Assembly (NCBI GenBank): GCA_934149005.1
Contig: CAKPDN010000001.1
Location: forward strand, 71,128 to 135,127
DNA length: 64,000 nt
Source: an uncultured Clostridia bacterium
GTDB taxonomy: Bacteria; Bacillota; Clostridia; TANB77; CAG-508
Reading direction: 5' to 3'
Shown in pieces: positions 40,819 through 45,334 of this stretch. Positions within the stretch are counted from its first letter, which is position 1. Every line of letters starts with the position of its first letter. The position numbers and the translations under genes are program-made. The notes under the pieces are model-generated. The model did no database searches. It was not told the DNA's origin and was given only the letters and a program-made list of their open reading frames with translations.

Positions 40819-41541
40819 TTTTTTACCTCCATTAATCAATGATATGGTTATATTTAAAGCTCTAAGATACTGTCAAACTTAAAGCATAATAAAATTTTAC
40901 ATAATAAATTATAGCATGTTTATTCAGTTTTTTCAACAAAAACTGGCAAATTCATTGACTTTAAGCTAAAATCGTGATATATATTATGTGTATTCTAGTT
41001 AGGAATACAAGAATATTGATGTCTTCTTGGGAATTTTGAAATTCCTCAGATGCCAGGCGAAAACGAGTCGCATATAGGATTGCGAACTGGTTATTAGAAA
41101 GTGTGAAAAATTTATAATAATAGTAAACTTGTCCAGTATTTATAAGTAATTAAGAAAGCCATGAGTGCAAAGTTCAATATTCTATTTACATACACACTAA
41201 AAAATGAGTACATATTTAAAACTCAAATTTTGTTTGAGCTTATTAAAATTGTATTCATGTAGGTAAATAGAGTATTGGTATATCGCTTATGGCTTTTTGT
41301 TATGTATAATCTTCTGCCCTCTCTATTTATGCAGAAACAAAAAGAGCTTAACAATTTATTTTTGGTATGTAAATAAATTGTTAAGATGAGCGAAAGAATA
41401 TATGAACGATATTAAATATATTCTTTTGCTTTGGCGAAGCCAAACATAAATTATCTATCGCAAGATTAGATAATTTATGAGCCCTCCGCTAGGAGCCCAC
41501 GACACCTTTGCAAAACGATAGTTTTGAAAGTGTCATAGTGG

Positions 41542-41572
41542 GTTACATACTTTCGTTAGAAAGTTATGTAAC
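41542..41572 (+). promoter_or_regulatory. candidate oriT/nic-site hairpin upstream of mob
   Basis: IR GTTACATACTTTC-gtta-GAAAGTTATGTAAC 45 bp upstream of the MobV start, inside a 780-bp non-coding region. Confidence 0.35.
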
Positions 41573-41616
41573 AGCTCCCTTCGGTCGCTACTTGCTACCT
41601 ACAGAAAGGAAATATA

Positions 41617-42912
41617 TTGGACAAGAACAAAACAAATTATTCAGTAGCTAGAGTAGAAACTTATACTAAAACAAGTATAACTAAAGCTGAAAGACATAAC
41701 GAAAGAAAAAATAAATCATATTCTAATATGAATGTTGATTTAACTCAAACGTCAAATAATGTACATTACAAAAGATGTGAAACTACCTACAACGAAAAAT
41801 TAAAAGAGTTGATTGATAGTAAACAAGTATCATTAAGAGGTTTAAGAGCCAATGCAAAACTATTTGATGAACTTATATTTGATATTAACTCTAATTATTT
41901 TGAAAAACATGGTGGTTATAAATTTGCAAAAGAATTTTACGAGAAAGCTTTTCATTTTGCTGAACAAGAAATGGGAACTGATAATATTATATCAGCAGTA
42001 ATGCATGCAGATGAATTAAATACAGCTTTAACAGAAGAATATGGAAAACCTATATATCATTATCACTTGCATGTTGTAGCACTTCCTGTTGTAAGAAAAG
42101 AAGTGAAATGGACTAAAAAATGTAAAGACAAAGCACTAATTGGAACTACAAAGGAAATAATCAACCAAGTAAGTCATAGTAATAAGTGGAAGTCAGAGCA
42201 AGTACTAGATAATCAAGGAAAGCCTGTATATGATAAAAAAGGAAATGCAGTTTTAATAAAATCATATAGCTTATTACAAGACAGATTTTTTAAATATATG
42301 TCTGATAGTGGTTATAAAGACTTTATTCGTGGTGTAAAAGGCAGTAATCAAGAGCATTTAGATGATTTGCAATTTAAAATTAAGAAAGATACTGAAAGAT
42401 TAGAAAAGATTACAAATAAAGTTGAAGAAAAAGAATCTTCTTATAATTCTTATATGAAATATGATAAGCAAATTGAAGATATTTCAAATTTAGGAAAACA
42501 AAAGAGATTTTCTAAAAAGATTGAACTAGAGCAAGAAGACTATGAGAATTTAACTGAATATGCTAAAAAAGGAATTGTCGCAGATAAAGAAATTTATGAG
42601 CTTAATAGTAGAATTGATAATTTAAGAAATGCAGTAGACAAATGGAAATCTCTATATGATGACATTGTAGAAAAAACGAAAGATTACTTCCATGCTATCA
42701 AACTTGCACCACAAAAAGTTACAGATTTCTTCAAAGGTCTATTTGATAAAGAAAAACAAGATGAATTAGAAAGACAAAGACTAGAGCAAGAAAAAATACA
42801 AGCTGAAAGAAAAGCTCGTGAACAAGCCAAAGAGCAAGCAAAACTTGAAAAGCAAAAATTAAAGAACTCTCCTGAATACAAGAAAAGGAGGGCTGACAGA
42901 GATGCAAGATAA
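41617..42912 (+). CDS. MobV-family (Mob/Pre) relaxase
   Basis: [10 protein letters not shown]..., MHADELNT and [11 protein letters not shown] (HxDE ... HxH motifs of PF01076), C-terminal coiled-coil. Confidence 0.75.
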
Positions 42913-43165
42913 TGAAAAAATATATAGAATTGAACTAACTAATGAAGAATATGAGTTTTTAGAGAACTTAAAGACAGAATTTTGTAATAAGCTTTCTAAA
43001 ATGAACGATGAAGAACGTGCAGAATATTTAAAAAGTTTTTATCCAGAACAAAATTTGAACTTTGAAAAAGAAATAAAAGGTACTGTTTATAAGGTCAATA
43101 CCTATTTTAATAAAAATTCGGAACACACTATACTAACTAGATTTTTTGAAATCTTCCAAAAGTAA
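42902..43165 (+). CDS. hypothetical small protein co-transcribed with mob
   Basis: 87-aa ORF overlapping the mob stop by 11 bp. Confidence 0.4.
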
Positions 43166-43279
43166 TAATTTTTATATTGAATTTTTAGTTTGAAATATGG
43201 TATATTATAAACACTACTTGAAATGTAATAACTATAATTTTATATCGTATTTCAAGCTGTCAAAAGAAAGGAGTAAATA

Positions 43280-44938
43280 ATGAAACAGCTAGAAAGCGAT
43301 AAAATAACTGCTTTATACTGTCGTTTATCAAGAGATGATGAACTATCAGGAGAAAGCAATAGTATAAAAAATCAAAAATCAATTTTAAGTAAATATGCAC
43401 AAGATAACAATTTTCAAAATATTAAGTTCTTTGTAGATGATGGATATTCTGGAATAACTTTTACAAGACCTGCTTTTATGGAAATAATGGAACTTGCTGA
43501 ACAAGGCAAAATCGGAACTATTATTGTAAAAGACCATTCAAGACTTGGTAGAAATAGACTTGTTGTAGGACAACTTCTTGAAGAAGATTTTGTAAGATTA
43601 AACATTAGATATATTGCTATAATGGACAACATTGATAGTAGCAAAGGTTTAAATGACTTCTTACCTATTCAAGACTGGTTTAATGAAATGCATGCTAAAA
43701 ATACAAGTCAAAAAGTTAGAGCAGTTCTTAAAAGTAAAGGCGAATCTGGAATTTCACTTGCTAACAATGTACCCTATGGCTATAAAAAAGATGAGAACGA
43801 TAAAACAAAATGGATAGTAGATGAAACATCTTCTGAAATTGTAAAAGAAATATTTAATCTATTTATTCAAGGACATGGAACTTGTGAGATTGCCAGAATT
43901 TTAAGAGAAAGAAAAATATTAACTCCATCAGAATATAATGCAAGTATTAGTACAAACTCAAATACTAAATATCAATATAAATGGTGTGGAACTACTGTGG
44001 CTGGTATTTTGGATAGACAAGAATATATTGGAGATACAATAAATTTTAAATCTACTACTCGTTCTTATAAAGATAAAACAAAAGTAAGACTTCCAAAGGA
44101 AGATAGAAAAATATTTAAAAATACCCACGAGCCAATTATTGATGAATATACTTGGAATATTGCAAAGCAATTAAGAAATAATAGAAAAAAGCCTACTAGG
44201 TCAGGTAAGAAAAGTATTTTTTCAGGACTACTATTTTGCAATGATTGTGGTAAAAAAATGTACTTTCAATCACCTGTAACAGATTTAAAAGCTAAAGACC
44301 ATTACAGATGTTCAAGTTATAAGCATGATACTTCTCTATGCTCATCTCACTATATTTCAGATGAAGTATTACAAGTTATTGTTTTAGAGAATATTCAAAG
44401 AGTAATTTCATATGTAAAAAGCTATGAAGATTTATTTATTCAAGAACAACTTGCAAAATCTACACAAGATGAGTTAAAGCATATTTCTAAAAACAAGAAA
44501 GAACTTGAACAAGCAAAGAAAAGAATAATTGAAATTGATAACTTATTTATGCACATTTACGAGGATAATATATCTGGAAAGCTAACAGATGAAAGATTTA
44601 GAAATTTATCTTTTAATTATGATAAAGAACAAAAAGAATTAAAAACAAAAATTGAACAATTATCAAAGGAAATAAACAATACTGAAAAGAAAACAACTGA
44701 CTTAACACAGTTTATATCTAATGTTAAGAAATATACTGAAATAACTGAACTAACACCAGAGATACTAAATGAGTTAATAGAAAAGATACTAATTCATCAA
44801 GCAGAAAAAGTTGATGGTAAAAAAGTTCAAGAAATAGATATATATTACAGAGGTGTTGGCATAATTTCTTTTCCAGTTAGTTTAGAAGATATGACAATGG
44901 TAATTGAAAAAATGATAAATAAAAGAATATCAGCTTAA
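43280..44938 (+). CDS. large serine recombinase (TnpX/TndX-like)
   Basis: N-terminal resolvase catalytic domain [11 protein letters not shown]...[17 protein letters not shown], recombinase domain, CxxC...C zinc ribbon and coiled-coil. 552 aa. Confidence 0.85.
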
Positions 44939-45129
44939 ACAAGCTATTTTATGGGAGAATATTTTAGTGTACTTAACTAAAGCGTTCTCCCCTATGAGTT
45001 ATGACATACTATCATAACTCGGTGGCTCTGCGAGGCTAATTCAATTTACCTTAATTGGTAAATTGAATGCACAAACATCTGATTAAATTTATTTTTACAA
45101 AATAAATCTATCATCTATTTTTGAAGTAG

Positions 45130-45334
45130 TTCTTGTTTAATTATCTTCATTTTTAGCACCATCCTTTCATTAGGATGATTTTAATATTGTTTTTAAGCAA
45201 CAAAAAAATCAACCAGATTTTATTTACTGATTGATTTTCATATCGATCTGTTCTATTAGTTCGAACAGAAACGTCATTGGTGCGGATGAAGGGACTCGAA
45301 CCCCCACGCCGTTGGCACTGGTTCCTAAGACCAG
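45130..45334. repeat. 203-bp direct repeat (right copy) overlapping the 3' end and downstream flank of intact tRNA-Leu
   Basis: About 88% identical to 30841-31045. Confidence 0.8.

What the first reader, a model, noticed from the sequence alone, without database searches (positions are those of the whole stretch)
40860..45130. Tn4451-like integrative mobilizable module: MobV relaxase, candidate oriT, small ORF, large serine recombinase
41617-42912 encodes a Mob/Pre relaxase with the HxDE and HxH motifs. It is preceded by a 780-bp non-coding region carrying the IR GTTACATACTTTC/GAAAGTTATGTAAC, which is candidate oriT. 43280-44938 encodes a 552-aa large serine recombinase, with the Ser in [10 protein letters not shown], a zinc ribbon and a coiled-coil. 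Gene content parallels the tnpZ-tnpX arrangement of the Tn4451/Tn4453 family of clostridial mobilizable transposons, but without a resistance cargo. The right end of the element (44939-45130) carries a perfect IR ATTCAATTTACC/GGTAAATTGAAT that could be a recombinase binding site.
Basis: partly seen in the sequence, partly recalled or inferred. Interest (0 to 1): 0.55.

Follow-up and report, generated by a model that had tools for sequence, protein, structure and literature searches.

The report
Mobilizable transposon nested in another
It sits at the transfer-origin nick site of a second, decayed mobile element that is itself parked exactly at the 3' end of a leucine tRNA gene.

Summary
They are a MobV relaxase (41617-42912), a small TnpW-like ORF (42902-43165) and a 552-aa large serine recombinase with a DUF4368 tail (43280-44938). 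The oriT inverted repeat is also real and conserved.

Comparison with about 150 related loci puts the element ('Tn-A') at 38924-44990, about 6.07 kb. It also carries TnpV, an IS200-type transposase and a membrane-protein cargo gene.

Tn-A is bracketed by a CC dinucleotide. The reconstructed attP is a perfect GTGTACTTAA-N12-CC-N12-TTAAGTACAC palindrome. The uninterrupted target is seen in two other genomes. A related element on IncHI2 plasmids is a base-precise insertion.

In 111 of 139 copies, Tn-A sits in the same site: the predicted nick box of the oriT of an outer serine-recombinase element. In this window that outer element has lost its recombinase and its relaxase is a pseudogene.

The conserved end of the outer family abuts the CCA end of 14 or more different tRNA species and of tmRNA, always at offset 0.

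Verdict: a new member of a known, very abundant family. The outer tRNA-end-targeting element is the more novel lead.

The parts
38922..38945 (+). Left junction and left end of Tn-A: CC core (38922-38923), 12-nt spacer AGTAAGACTAAA, and arm TTAAGTACAC (38936-38945).
   Evidence: Homology to loci with unrelated left flanks begins here. All left flanks end in CC.
39036..39398 (+). tnpV homologue (120 aa).
   Evidence: PF14198 TnpV, E 3.8e-33. Present at the same place in relatives.
39536..40087 (-). IS200/IS605-type Y1 transposase gene, a secondary insertion in the variable cargo region.
   Evidence: PF01797, E 3.2e-40. About 80% nt identity to IS200/IS605 tnpA on C. perfringens plasmids. Absent from most relatives.
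40240..40839 (-). Cargo gene: 199-aa predicted membrane protein of unknown function.
   Evidence: ORF. Only a weak DUF4064 hit. A strong promoter-like site lies at 40936-40908 on the minus strand. It lies in the segment that varies between relatives.
40990..41400 (+). Highly conserved, strongly structured non-coding segment upstream of oriT. It is a possible single-strand origin.
   Evidence: 94-99% column conservation in 17 loci with no shared ORF. ssDNA fold z = -7.1 on the + strand and -5.7 on the - strand. The function is inferred only.
41511..41572 (+). oriT of Tn-A: hairpin CAAAAC-GATA-GTTTTG (41511-41526); nick box TCATAGTGGG/TTA (41533-45), with the predicted nick between G41542 and T41543; repeat arms 41542-41554 and 41559-41572.
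   Evidence: Near-invariant in 40 distinct sequences, with compensatory changes in the arms. The box resembles the pMV158 TAGTGTG/TTATAC nick region (PMC5863519).
41617..42912 (+). MobV (Mob/Pre) relaxase, 431 aa, TTG start.
   Evidence: PF01076, E 7.8e-37. NCBIfam MobV, E 1.6e-16, below that model's cut-off. Relatives start at the same codon position with ATG.
42902..43165 (+). TnpW-like small ORF (87 aa), overlapping the relaxase stop by 11 nt.
   Evidence: PF14202, E 4.6e-4, below cut-off. Conserved at 55-98% identity in relatives. The homologue on the IncHI2 plasmid is annotated as TnpW family in RefSeq.
43280..44938 (+). Large serine recombinase LSR1 (552 aa) with a DUF4368 C-terminus. 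Presumed integrase/excisionase of Tn-A.
   Evidence: Four Pfam domains. 38% identity to annotated TndX over 94% of its length. About 8000 homologues, hundreds of them at about 90% identity.
44967..44990 (+). Right end of Tn-A: arm GTGTACTTAA (44967-44976), 12-nt spacer CTAAAGCGTTCT, and CC core (44989-44990).
   Evidence: Homology to loci with unrelated right flanks stops here.
38893..38921 (-). Left half of the split target: hairpin AGGACTT...AAGTCCT plus AAC. This is the Mob2-proximal half of the outer element's oriT.
   Evidence: Contiguous with the 44991-45036 sequence in L068 and L080, where no Tn-A is inserted.
44991..45036 (-). Right half of the split target: CCTATGAG plus hairpin GAGTTATGA...TCATAACTC plus GGTGGCTCTGCGAGGC. 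This is the distal half of the outer element's oriT.
   Evidence: On the Mob2 strand the joined site reads CATAGGGGG/TTAGGAC, parallel to Tn-A's own nick box.
37476..38859 (-). Mob2: MobV relaxase pseudogene of the outer element, with at least two reading-frame breaks.
   Evidence: tblastn gives 76-81% identity to the intact 472-aa L003 protein, split over frames. The L003 protein matches Mob_Pre at E 9e-11.
45039..45068 (.). It is a terminator-like hairpin of the outer element and lies outside Tn-A.
   Evidence: The same position after ...GCGAGGC holds hairpins of different sequence in relatives, between the convergent LSR1 and LSR2 genes.
45115..45150 (-). Remnant (first ~9 codons) of the small ORF p121 that precedes the outer element's recombinase LSR2. 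LSR2 itself is deleted.
   Evidence: Alignment with L003 shows about 2.5 kb (p121 C-terminus plus the 639-aa serine recombinase) missing between 45053 and 45126. L002 and L008 carry the same deletion.
45127..45277 (-). tRNA-proximal end block of the outer element: terminator-like hairpin for the tRNA, the p121 ribosome-binding site and start, and the terminal motif TTAGTTCGAACAGAAACGTCAT (45256-45277).
   Evidence: Conserved next to many different tRNAs.
45278..45361 (-). tRNA-Leu(TAG) gene. The outer element abuts its CCA end.
   Evidence: ARAGORN, Rfam, offset 0.
35684..35804 (-). Probable distal end of the outer element: TGGTGTG followed by AACAGC-GTAGATATCTACAAC...
   Evidence: 77% identity to the distal junction of L060. 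The motif recurs at element ends in 17 loci, always preceded by TGG(A/T)GC.
30590..31045 (-). Second copy of the p121 gene plus end block (30590-30988), followed by a 57-nt 3' fragment of tRNA-Leu(TAG) (30989-31045). This marks an older integration.
   Evidence: 91% identity to L003 13039-13495 and 90% to window 45126-45334. The tRNA fragment is identical to 45278-45334.

Best explanation
Window 38924-44990 is a 6.07-kb integrative mobilizable element ('Tn-A') of the Tn4451/Tn4453 kind. Its gene order is tnpV, cargo (a membrane protein plus an IS200-type insertion), a structured non-coding segment, oriT, MobV relaxase, a tnpW-like ORF, and a DUF4368 large serine recombinase.

Proposed mechanism:
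1. The recombinase binds the two ends. Each end carries one 10-bp arm 12 nt from a CC dinucleotide.
2. It exchanges strands at CC and releases a circle. The joint of that circle is the perfect palindrome GTGTACTTAA-N12-CC-N12-TTAAGTACAC. The target TCCTAAC-CC-CCTATGAG is restored.
3. The relaxase nicks the circle at oriT, predicted at ATAGTGGG/TTAC. One strand leaves through the mating pore of a helper conjugative element.
4. In the recipient, the recombinase inserts the circle at a CC inside a matching site.

The strongly preferred site is the nick box of the MobV oriT of another small serine-recombinase element. In this window that host element lies between the tRNA-Leu CCA end (45277) and about 35691. 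It has lost its own recombinase and its relaxase is a pseudogene.

Shown: gene content, exact ends, the CC at both junctions, uninterrupted targets elsewhere, many independent insertion sites, and a base-precise insertion of a relative.

Inferred: present-day activity, the nick position, the need for a helper, and the roles of TnpV and TnpW.
For: Domains.

Ends: about 150 related copies share homology exactly from CC|AGTAAGA... to ...GTTCTCC|, whatever the flanks.

Independent insertions: 28 of 139 copies lie in about 18 other sites, each with CC at the junction.

Empty target: the uninterrupted sequence TCCTAACCCCCTAT is present in L068 and L080. Its C count (5) equals left (3) plus right (4) minus one CC.

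Relative on a plasmid: the element on Klebsiella pD610-HI2 has the same gene order, with 64% recombinase and 79% relaxase identity. It is 7,700 bp and bracketed by TT. Its flanks, joined with a single TT, match at least 298 IncHI2 plasmids at 100% over 309 nt.

oriT: near-invariant, with compensatory changes in the repeat arms. Its box resembles the pMV158 nick region.

Target as oriT: the target reads CATAGGGGG/TTAGG on the Mob2 strand, 35 nt upstream of the Mob2 start. It is flanked by two hairpins, as in Tn-A's own oriT.

Intactness: all four core genes are full length compared with relatives.

Literature: TnpX uses a 2-bp core, and Tn6106 has tnpV on the left, a mob gene, and the recombinase on the right (PMC3158075). 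Nested and tandem IMEs are common in Firmicutes (PMC12084326).
Against: - No circular joint was found. The attP pattern gave 0 hits in metagenome and viral contigs, although the right end alone gave 72 hits. Excision in nature is therefore not documented here.
- The 111/139 preference for one site could partly reflect inheritance of an old composite rather than repeated targeting.
- The TnpW match is below Pfam's cut-off.
- No direct sequence comparison with TnpX itself was possible. Only TndX (38% identity) and domain content were compared.
- The nick site is assigned by resemblance only.
- No conjugative helper was looked for in the window.
Confidence: 0.8

Rival explanations
1. One reading: the element spans about 40860-45130, has no tnpV, and uses the 45039-45068 perfect repeat as its right-end recombinase site.
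For: The repeat is real and perfect. The relaxase-to-recombinase block is the most conserved part.
Against: Copies in unrelated flanks always include tnpV and end at 38924 and 44990. The segment 44991-45036 plus the hairpin is contiguous with 38893-38921 in genomes lacking the element. The hairpin's sequence differs between relatives while its position is kept, as for a terminator.
Confidence: 0.03
2. Tn-A no longer moves on its own. The unit that spreads is the whole composite (outer element plus Tn-A), integrated next to tRNA genes by the outer recombinase LSR2. The common 'preferred site' then reflects one ancient insertion inherited by descent.
For: Eighty percent of copies share the same site. 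The composite lies next to many different tRNAs at fixed spacing. No circular joint was found.
Against: About 18 other insertion sites have exact CC junctions. Two secondary sites resemble the primary one: L087 CTAACTCC|TCTATGAATT and L100 TTAACCC|CCTAGG. Outer elements exist with the site empty. A relative made a precise recent jump into IncHI2 plasmids. Cargo differs between copies sharing the same shell.
Confidence: 0.15
3. LSR1, not LSR2, places the whole unit (shell plus Tn-A) at tRNA CCA ends. The true ends of the LSR1 element would then be the tRNA junction and the distal arm.
For: About 17 loci have LSR1 within 90-250 bp of a tRNA end with no LSR2 present. CC is both the Tn-A core and part of CCA.
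Against: The tRNA-proximal and distal arms (GTTCGAACAG..., GTAGTTATCTAC...) bear no resemblance to the LSR1 arms (GTGTACTTAA). LSR2-less shells have differing junctions, consistent with deletions, and the window keeps the first codons of p121 and the last codons of LSR2. Tn-A copies outside shells are not next to tRNAs.
Confidence: 0.07
4. The recombinase is a prophage integrase, and the region is a prophage remnant.
For: Large serine recombinases are common phage integrases.
Against: There are no phage structural or replication genes between 35.7 and 45.3 kb. In more than 100 loci the recombinase is always linked to tnpV, a MobV relaxase and tnpW. It carries the DUF4368 tail typical of the TnpX/TndX group.
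Confidence: 0.01

Closest known systems
Tn4451 / Tn4453 (Clostridium perfringens / C. difficile mobilisable chloramphenicol-resistance transposons)
   Same: About 6 kb. Has a large serine recombinase with a DUF4368 tail, tnpV, a MobV relaxase (tnpZ) with upstream oriT, and tnpW. Flanked by a 2-bp repeat that is the crossover site. Expected to excise as a circle and to be mobilised in trans (PMC3158075, PMC5704250).
   Different: The core is CC rather than GA. The recombinase is 552 aa (TnpX is 707 aa, from my own knowledge) and only 38% identical to its closest named relative tested here, TndX. It is the last gene, not the first, so the circle joint lies between the recombinase and tnpV and cannot create a recombinase promoter. 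There is no tnpY and no catP. Insertion shows a marked preference for one site rather than low specificity.
Tn6106, and Tn6104/Tn6105, putative mobilisable transposons inside Tn6103 of C. difficile R20291
   Same: Tn6106 is described with a TnpV homologue at the left, a mobilisation protein, and a single large serine recombinase at the right end. It is nested in another mobile element (PMC3158075). This is the same layout and the same nested lifestyle.
   Different: Sequence relatedness could not be tested because the genome is not in the searchable collections. Tn6106 has 11 ORFs and its excision was not detected. Its host is a conjugative transposon, not a small tRNA-linked IME.
Unnamed aac(6')-Ie-aph(2'')-Ia element on IncHI2 plasmids (e.g. 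K. pneumoniae pD610-HI2, NZ_MG288680.1: locus L001 1946-9645, record coordinates about 209,357-217,056)
   Same: Identical gene order. About 77-80% nt identity over oriT, relaxase, tnpW and the recombinase 5' part. Same attP architecture, with 8-10-bp inverted arms about 12 nt from a 2-bp core. Its insertion is proven precise.
   Different: The core is TT and the arm sequence differs (GTCCTTAT/ATAAGGAC). The recombinase is 64% identical. It carries an aminoglycoside-resistance cargo and sits in a proteobacterial plasmid gene, not in an oriT.
IME_oriT of Streptococcus agalactiae (IMEs that integrate into the nic site of the oriT of ICEs)
   Same: A mobilizable element whose primary attachment site is the nick region of another element's origin of transfer (PMC5704250).
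   Different: Those elements use tyrosine integrases and MobT-type oriTs of ICEs. Here a serine recombinase targets a MobV-type oriT of a small IME, and the oriT assignment is by resemblance only.
pMV158 MobM / oriT (MOBV1 prototype)
   Same: The relaxase motifs match. The oriT layout also matches: a short hairpin, then a box ending in G/T, overlapped by a second inverted repeat. Compare TAGTGTG/TTATAC with TAGTGGG/TTACAT.
   Different: pMV158 is a plasmid, not an integrated element. Hairpin sequences and spacing differ, and nicking has not been tested here.

Membership tests
Tn4451/Tn4453 family of integrative mobilizable elements | Large serine recombinase of the TnpX/TndX group (resolvase catalytic domain, recombinase domain, zinc ribbon, DUF4368 tail). 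| tested here: met
   All four Pfam domains are present. 38% identity over 94% of its length to an annotated TndX. No direct comparison with TnpX was possible.
Tn4451/Tn4453 family of integrative mobilizable elements | MobV (Mob/Pre) relaxase with an oriT immediately upstream. | tested here: met
   PF01076, E 7.8e-37. The upstream repeat and nick-like box are conserved and covarying and resemble pMV158 oriT.
Tn4451/Tn4453 family of integrative mobilizable elements | Accessory genes tnpV and tnpW. | tested here: met
   TnpV at E 3.8e-33. TnpW only at E 4.6e-4, below the cut-off, but the homologue is annotated as TnpW family in RefSeq. TnpV is clear and TnpW is weak.
Tn4451/Tn4453 family of integrative mobilizable elements | Element bracketed by a 2-bp direct repeat that is the crossover site. 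| tested here: met
   CC is present at both junctions in all copies. The C count of the empty site fits one CC.
Tn4451/Tn4453 family of integrative mobilizable elements | The crossover dinucleotide is GA. | tested here: not met
   The core is CC here and TT in the IncHI2 relative.
Tn4451/Tn4453 family of integrative mobilizable elements | The recombinase is the first gene, and the circle joint lies just upstream of it and forms its promoter. | tested here: not met
   The recombinase is the last gene and ends 52 bp from the right end. A promoter-like site lies inside the element at 43177-43206. A Campylobacter plasmid element shows the classical recombinase-then-tnpV order.
Tn4451/Tn4453 family of integrative mobilizable elements | Excision as a non-replicating circle, with mobilisation in trans by a conjugative helper. 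| not testable with these tools
   An in-silico search for the joint gave 0 hits, against 72 hits for the right end alone. This is uninformative about rare circles.
MOBV1 relaxases | Three N-terminal motifs: HxxR, HxDE, HxH. | tested here: met
   HNER, HADE and HYHLH are read in the translation of 41617-42912. The NCBIfam MobV model matches residues 7-247 but below its cut-off (61 vs 100 bits).
Outer element: serine-recombinase IME integrating at the CCA end of tRNA/tmRNA genes (no named family found) | The conserved element end abuts the last base of the tRNA gene, whatever the tRNA. | tested here: met
   Offset 0 in 30 genome loci and 14 metagenome loci. These cover Leu (4 anticodons), Gly, Cys, Tyr, Thr (2), Met, Gln (2), Arg (2) and tmRNA. 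The window's copy lies at tRNA-Leu(TAG).
Outer element: serine-recombinase IME integrating at the CCA end of tRNA/tmRNA genes (no named family found) | Own serine recombinase (LSR2) and small ORF next to the tRNA, plus its own MobV relaxase. | tested here: not met
   In the window LSR2 and most of p121 are deleted and Mob2 is a pseudogene. Intact in L003 and about 35 other loci. The window copy is a decayed member.

The most novel reading that the evidence does not exclude
The outer element belongs to an undescribed family of small mobilizable elements. Their large serine recombinase (LSR2, 639 aa, no DUF4368) would integrate them exactly at the encoded CCA end of essentially any tRNA or tmRNA gene. 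It would do so using an attP arm that imitates a tRNA 3' end (TGG-N-GC...). The element supplies a new terminator for the tRNA.

The Tn4451-like element in turn uses the nick box of that family's oriT as its primary landing site.

Together with a tyrosine-integrase island that targets the anticodon loop, these elements would have built the 17-kb array between 28.6 and 45.3 kb by repeated integration into one tRNA-Leu gene.
Probability: 0.4. Interest if true: 0.65.

Novelty: new member of a known kind. Interest (0 to 1): 0.4.

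Why it matters
Elements of this family are among the commonest carriers of resistance genes shared between human and livestock gut Clostridia (PMC9765467). A close relative has already carried an aminoglycoside-resistance gene onto IncHI2 plasmids of Klebsiella, Salmonella, Enterobacter and Citrobacter.

Exact ends, the crossover dinucleotide, the attP arms and the preferred target make such elements recognisable and delimitable in metagenomes.

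If the preferred target is confirmed as an oriT nick site, this would be a serine-recombinase counterpart of the streptococcal IME_oriT elements.

The outer family, if confirmed, would be a serine recombinase with a generic 'any tRNA 3' end' specificity. That is unusual, because tRNA targeting is classically a property of tyrosine integrases. It could also be of interest as a programmable or broad-host landing system.

Tried and rejected
- Group II intron: considered as the identity of the extra 2.5 kb found in relatives between the recombinase and the tRNA. Rejected, because that segment encodes a second serine recombinase and Rfam finds no intron.
- The p121-LSR2 module as an insertion into a 'short' shell: considered. 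The window keeps the first codons of p121 and a sequence resembling the last codons of LSR2, so deletion is more likely here. It is not proven for every short-class locus.
- Circular joint: searched for in metagenome and viral contigs. None found.
- Rfam on the 40800-41650 non-coding stretch: no credible family.
- Conserved ORF in 40930-41400: none shared.
- Source organism: the cluster look-up returned no names. Relatives are uncultured gut Clostridia/Clostridium MAGs.
- Primary Tn4451 papers for end sequences and gene order: not held. The Tn4451 gene order and the length of TnpX therefore rest partly on my own knowledge.
- Prior descriptions of serine-recombinase integration at tRNA CCA ends: three full-text searches found none. 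This is not proof of absence.
- Empty tRNA-Leu site in the same species: not found. The only alternative contig carries a different element on the same distal arm.

Full report
**1. What is in the flagged interval**

- 41617-42912 is a Mob/Pre (MobV) relaxase: PF01076, E 7.8e-37, with the HNER, HADE and HYHLH motifs visible.
- 42902-43165 is an 87-aa ORF with a weak TnpW match.
- 43280-44938 is a 552-aa large serine recombinase with Resolvase, Recombinase, zinc-ribbon and DUF4368 domains.

- a clear TnpV gene (39036-39398, E 3.8e-33);
- an IS200-type Y1 transposase (39536-40087, minus strand);
- a 199-aa membrane-protein gene (40240-40839, minus strand).

A tRNA-Leu(TAG) gene lies at 45278-45361 on the minus strand.

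**2. Relatives**

The recombinase has about 8000 scored homologues, with hundreds at about 90% identity.

One genome scan returned 80 loci, all from uncultured gut Clostridia MAGs. One metagenome scan for the right end returned 72 more.

A set of IncHI2 plasmids from Klebsiella, Citrobacter, Enterobacter and Salmonella carries a relative with the same order: tnpV, cargo (there aac(6')-Ie-aph(2'')-Ia), relaxase, tnpW, DUF4368 recombinase. It has about 80% nucleotide identity over the relaxase-tnpW-recombinase 5' block in the megablast search (77% over a longer alignment that also includes oriT).

**3. True boundaries**

BLAST of the window against all loci shows three things: a conserved tnpV block, a variable cargo, and a conserved block running from the oriT region to just past the recombinase.

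Printing the junctions shows that, whatever the flanks, copies begin at CC|AGTAAGACTAAATTAAGTACAC and end at GTGTACTTAACTAAAGCGTTCTCC|. In the window these are 38922-38945 and 44967-44990.

Joining the two ends gives GTGTACTTAA-N12-CC-N12-TTAAGTACAC. This is a perfect dyad around a non-palindromic 2-bp core, the classical layout of a serine-integrase attP.

Two loci hold the uninterrupted target TCCTAACCCCCTAT (L068, L080). Its five C's equal the three at the left junction plus the four at the right junction, minus one CC. The element is therefore 6,067 bp counting one CC.

**4. The family makes base-precise insertions**

The IncHI2 relative is 7,700 bp. It is bracketed by TT and has its own inverted arms (GTCCTTAT / ATAAGGAC).

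Its two flanks, joined with a single TT, match at least 298 IncHI2 plasmids at 100% over 309 nt.

**5.

The perfect repeat at 45039-45068 lies 49 bp beyond the right end.

In relatives, the same position after the conserved ...CTCTGCGAGGC holds hairpins of different sequence. These sit between the recombinase and a convergent second recombinase gene. The window has a second such hairpin at 45086-45108.

It is best read as a terminator of the surrounding element, not as a recombinase site.

**6. oriT**

The 41511-41572 segment is almost invariant in 40 distinct sequences.

The box TCATAGTGGG/TTACAT resembles the pMV158 MobM site AAGtaTAGTGTG/TTATAC, where the nick is G/T (PMC5863519). The predicted nick is therefore G41542/T41543, by resemblance only.

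The rest of the '780-bp non-coding region' has two other components:
- A strong promoter-like site for the divergent cargo gene.
- A 410-nt segment (40990-41400) that is 94-99% conserved, has no shared ORF and folds far better than shuffles as single-stranded DNA (z = -7.1 and -5.7). A single-strand origin for the transferred strand is a reasonable guess, but no more than that.

**7. Where it sits**

Of 139 copies with enough right flank, 111 lie in the same site. The other 28 lie in about 18 other sites, and some of these resemble the main one.

The main site lies 35 nt upstream of the start of a second, divergently oriented MobV relaxase gene (Mob2). That gene is intact in L003 (Mob_Pre, E 9e-11) and a pseudogene in the window at 37476-38859.

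Read on the Mob2 strand, the joined site is hairpin, then CATAGGGGG/TTAGGAC, then hairpin. This has the same layout and nearly the same box as Tn-A's own oriT. The CC core falls one base from the predicted nick.

I therefore propose that the primary attachment site is the nick box of another element's oriT. This recalls the streptococcal IME_oriT elements, which use tyrosine integrases (PMC5704250).

**8. The outer element**

In about 35 loci the Tn-A copy is followed by a convergent 639-aa serine recombinase (LSR2; Resolvase plus Recombinase domains only), then a small ORF (p121), then a tRNA gene.

The conserved end motif TTAGTTCGAACAGAAACGTCAT stops exactly at the CCA end. The offset is 0 in all 30 genome loci and all 14 metagenome loci that have a complete gene. 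These cover at least 14 tRNA species plus tmRNA.

The far end of these elements carries a second conserved arm, TGG(A/T)GC-N7-GTAGTTATCTACAAC. In 11 of 11 cases its fourth base matches the discriminator of the neighbouring tRNA.

In the window, LSR2 and most of p121 are deleted. Only the first ~9 codons of p121 and a stretch like the last codons of LSR2 remain. L002 and L008 share this deletion. Other loci lack LSR2 with different junctions.

A matching distal arm lies at 35684-35804. The outer element therefore probably spans about 35691-45277, with a histidine-phosphatase gene as cargo.

**9. The wider array (inference)**

A second copy of the end block plus p121, followed by a 57-nt 3' fragment of the same tRNA-Leu, lies at 30590-31045. 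A second distal arm lies at 28594-28715. A short tyrosine-integrase gene (34977-35573) lies just left of the first distal arm.

The simplest reading is successive integrations into one tRNA-Leu gene:
1. An outer-type element integrated at the CCA end.
2. A tyrosine-integrase island then integrated in the anticodon loop.
3. A second outer-type element integrated at the regenerated CCA end.
4. Tn-A inserted into that element's oriT.

L026 shows the same kinds of junction in a different order. Tandem and nested ('matryoshka') IMEs are well documented in Firmicutes (PMC12084326).

**10. Comparison with known elements**

Gene content and the 2-bp crossover place Tn-A in the Tn4451/Tn4453 kind. It departs from the prototype in three ways:
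- The core is CC, not GA.
- The recombinase is last rather than first, so the joint cannot build a recombinase promoter.
- There is a marked site preference.

The layout matches Tn6106 of C. difficile as described in PMC3158075. Sequence relatedness to Tn6106 could not be tested.

**11. Verdict**

The boundaries and the proposed end site are wrong.

The element itself is an ordinary, very abundant kind, here without a resistance gene. The new information is its exact anatomy and its oriT-like target.

The outer family, parked at tRNA CCA ends, is the more unusual lead. I found no description of it in the searchable literature.

Noticed in passing
window 45127-45277 and 45278-45361; loci L003-L158: A family of small elements ends exactly at the encoded CCA of at least 14 different tRNA species and of tmRNA, at offset 0 in 44 of 44 cases. 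In most intact-looking copies (about 35 loci), a 639-aa serine recombinase and a small ORF sit next to the tRNA. The element end supplies a terminator-like hairpin right after the tRNA.
   Followed up: partly
window 30590-31045: A second copy of the outer element's end block and small ORF is followed by a 57-nt 3' fragment of tRNA-Leu(TAG). The fragment is identical to 45278-45334 and is cut in the anticodon loop. L026 has a similar truncated tRNA-Leu (13393 onward). This suggests a separate element family that integrates in the anticodon loop.
   Followed up: partly
window 28594-28715 and 35684-35804: Two copies of a conserved 'distal arm' (TGGTGCC/TGGTGTG + N6 + GTAG(T/A)TAT(T/C)TACAAC...ATATCAATCA). 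The arm recurs at the far ends of the outer-type elements in 17 loci. Its first bases imitate a tRNA 3' end.
   Followed up: partly
window 40990-41400: A 410-nt non-coding segment that is more conserved (94-99%) than the neighbouring genes. It has no shared ORF and folds very strongly as single-stranded DNA, including a perfect 15-bp hairpin at about 41345-41392. It may be a single-strand origin for the transferred strand.
   Followed up: partly
window 34977-35573: A short (198 aa) tyrosine-recombinase ORF holding only the catalytic domain, pointing towards the distal junction of the outer element. It is probably the integrase, or a remnant of it, of an island occupying about 31046-35683, together with an HTH gene (33925-34260) and a DUF5780 gene (31854-32951).
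   Followed up: no
window 28782-30525: An ABC exporter split into a 388-aa membrane part and a 191-aa ATPase part, apparently by a frameshift. It lies between the second p121 copy and the second distal arm, so it is probably cargo of an older decayed element.
   Followed up: no
L088 and L112 versus L111 and L147: Some Tn-A copies have the left flank of the main (oriT) site but the right flank of the recurrent secondary site (CATTCAAT...). This suggests recombinase-mediated or homologous rearrangement between two copies.
   Followed up: no
L080 2392-2480 and 10700-10793: In one shell the main Tn-A site is empty. A copy of the TT-core variant sits in the loop of the tRNA-terminator hairpin of the same shell. 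The shell therefore acts as a landing pad for more than one subfamily.
   Followed up: partly
window 39422-39457: A 34-36-nt stretch between tnpV and the IS200-type gene is 100% identical to unannotated spots on Proteus and Ligilactobacillus plasmids. It may be an IS end or a shared cassette boundary.
   Followed up: no
window 45459-47150: A surface-protein gene next to the tRNA carries six or more tandem 45-nt repeats (45585-45989) encoding the KEDKKDETDKPSTSD units.
   Followed up: no
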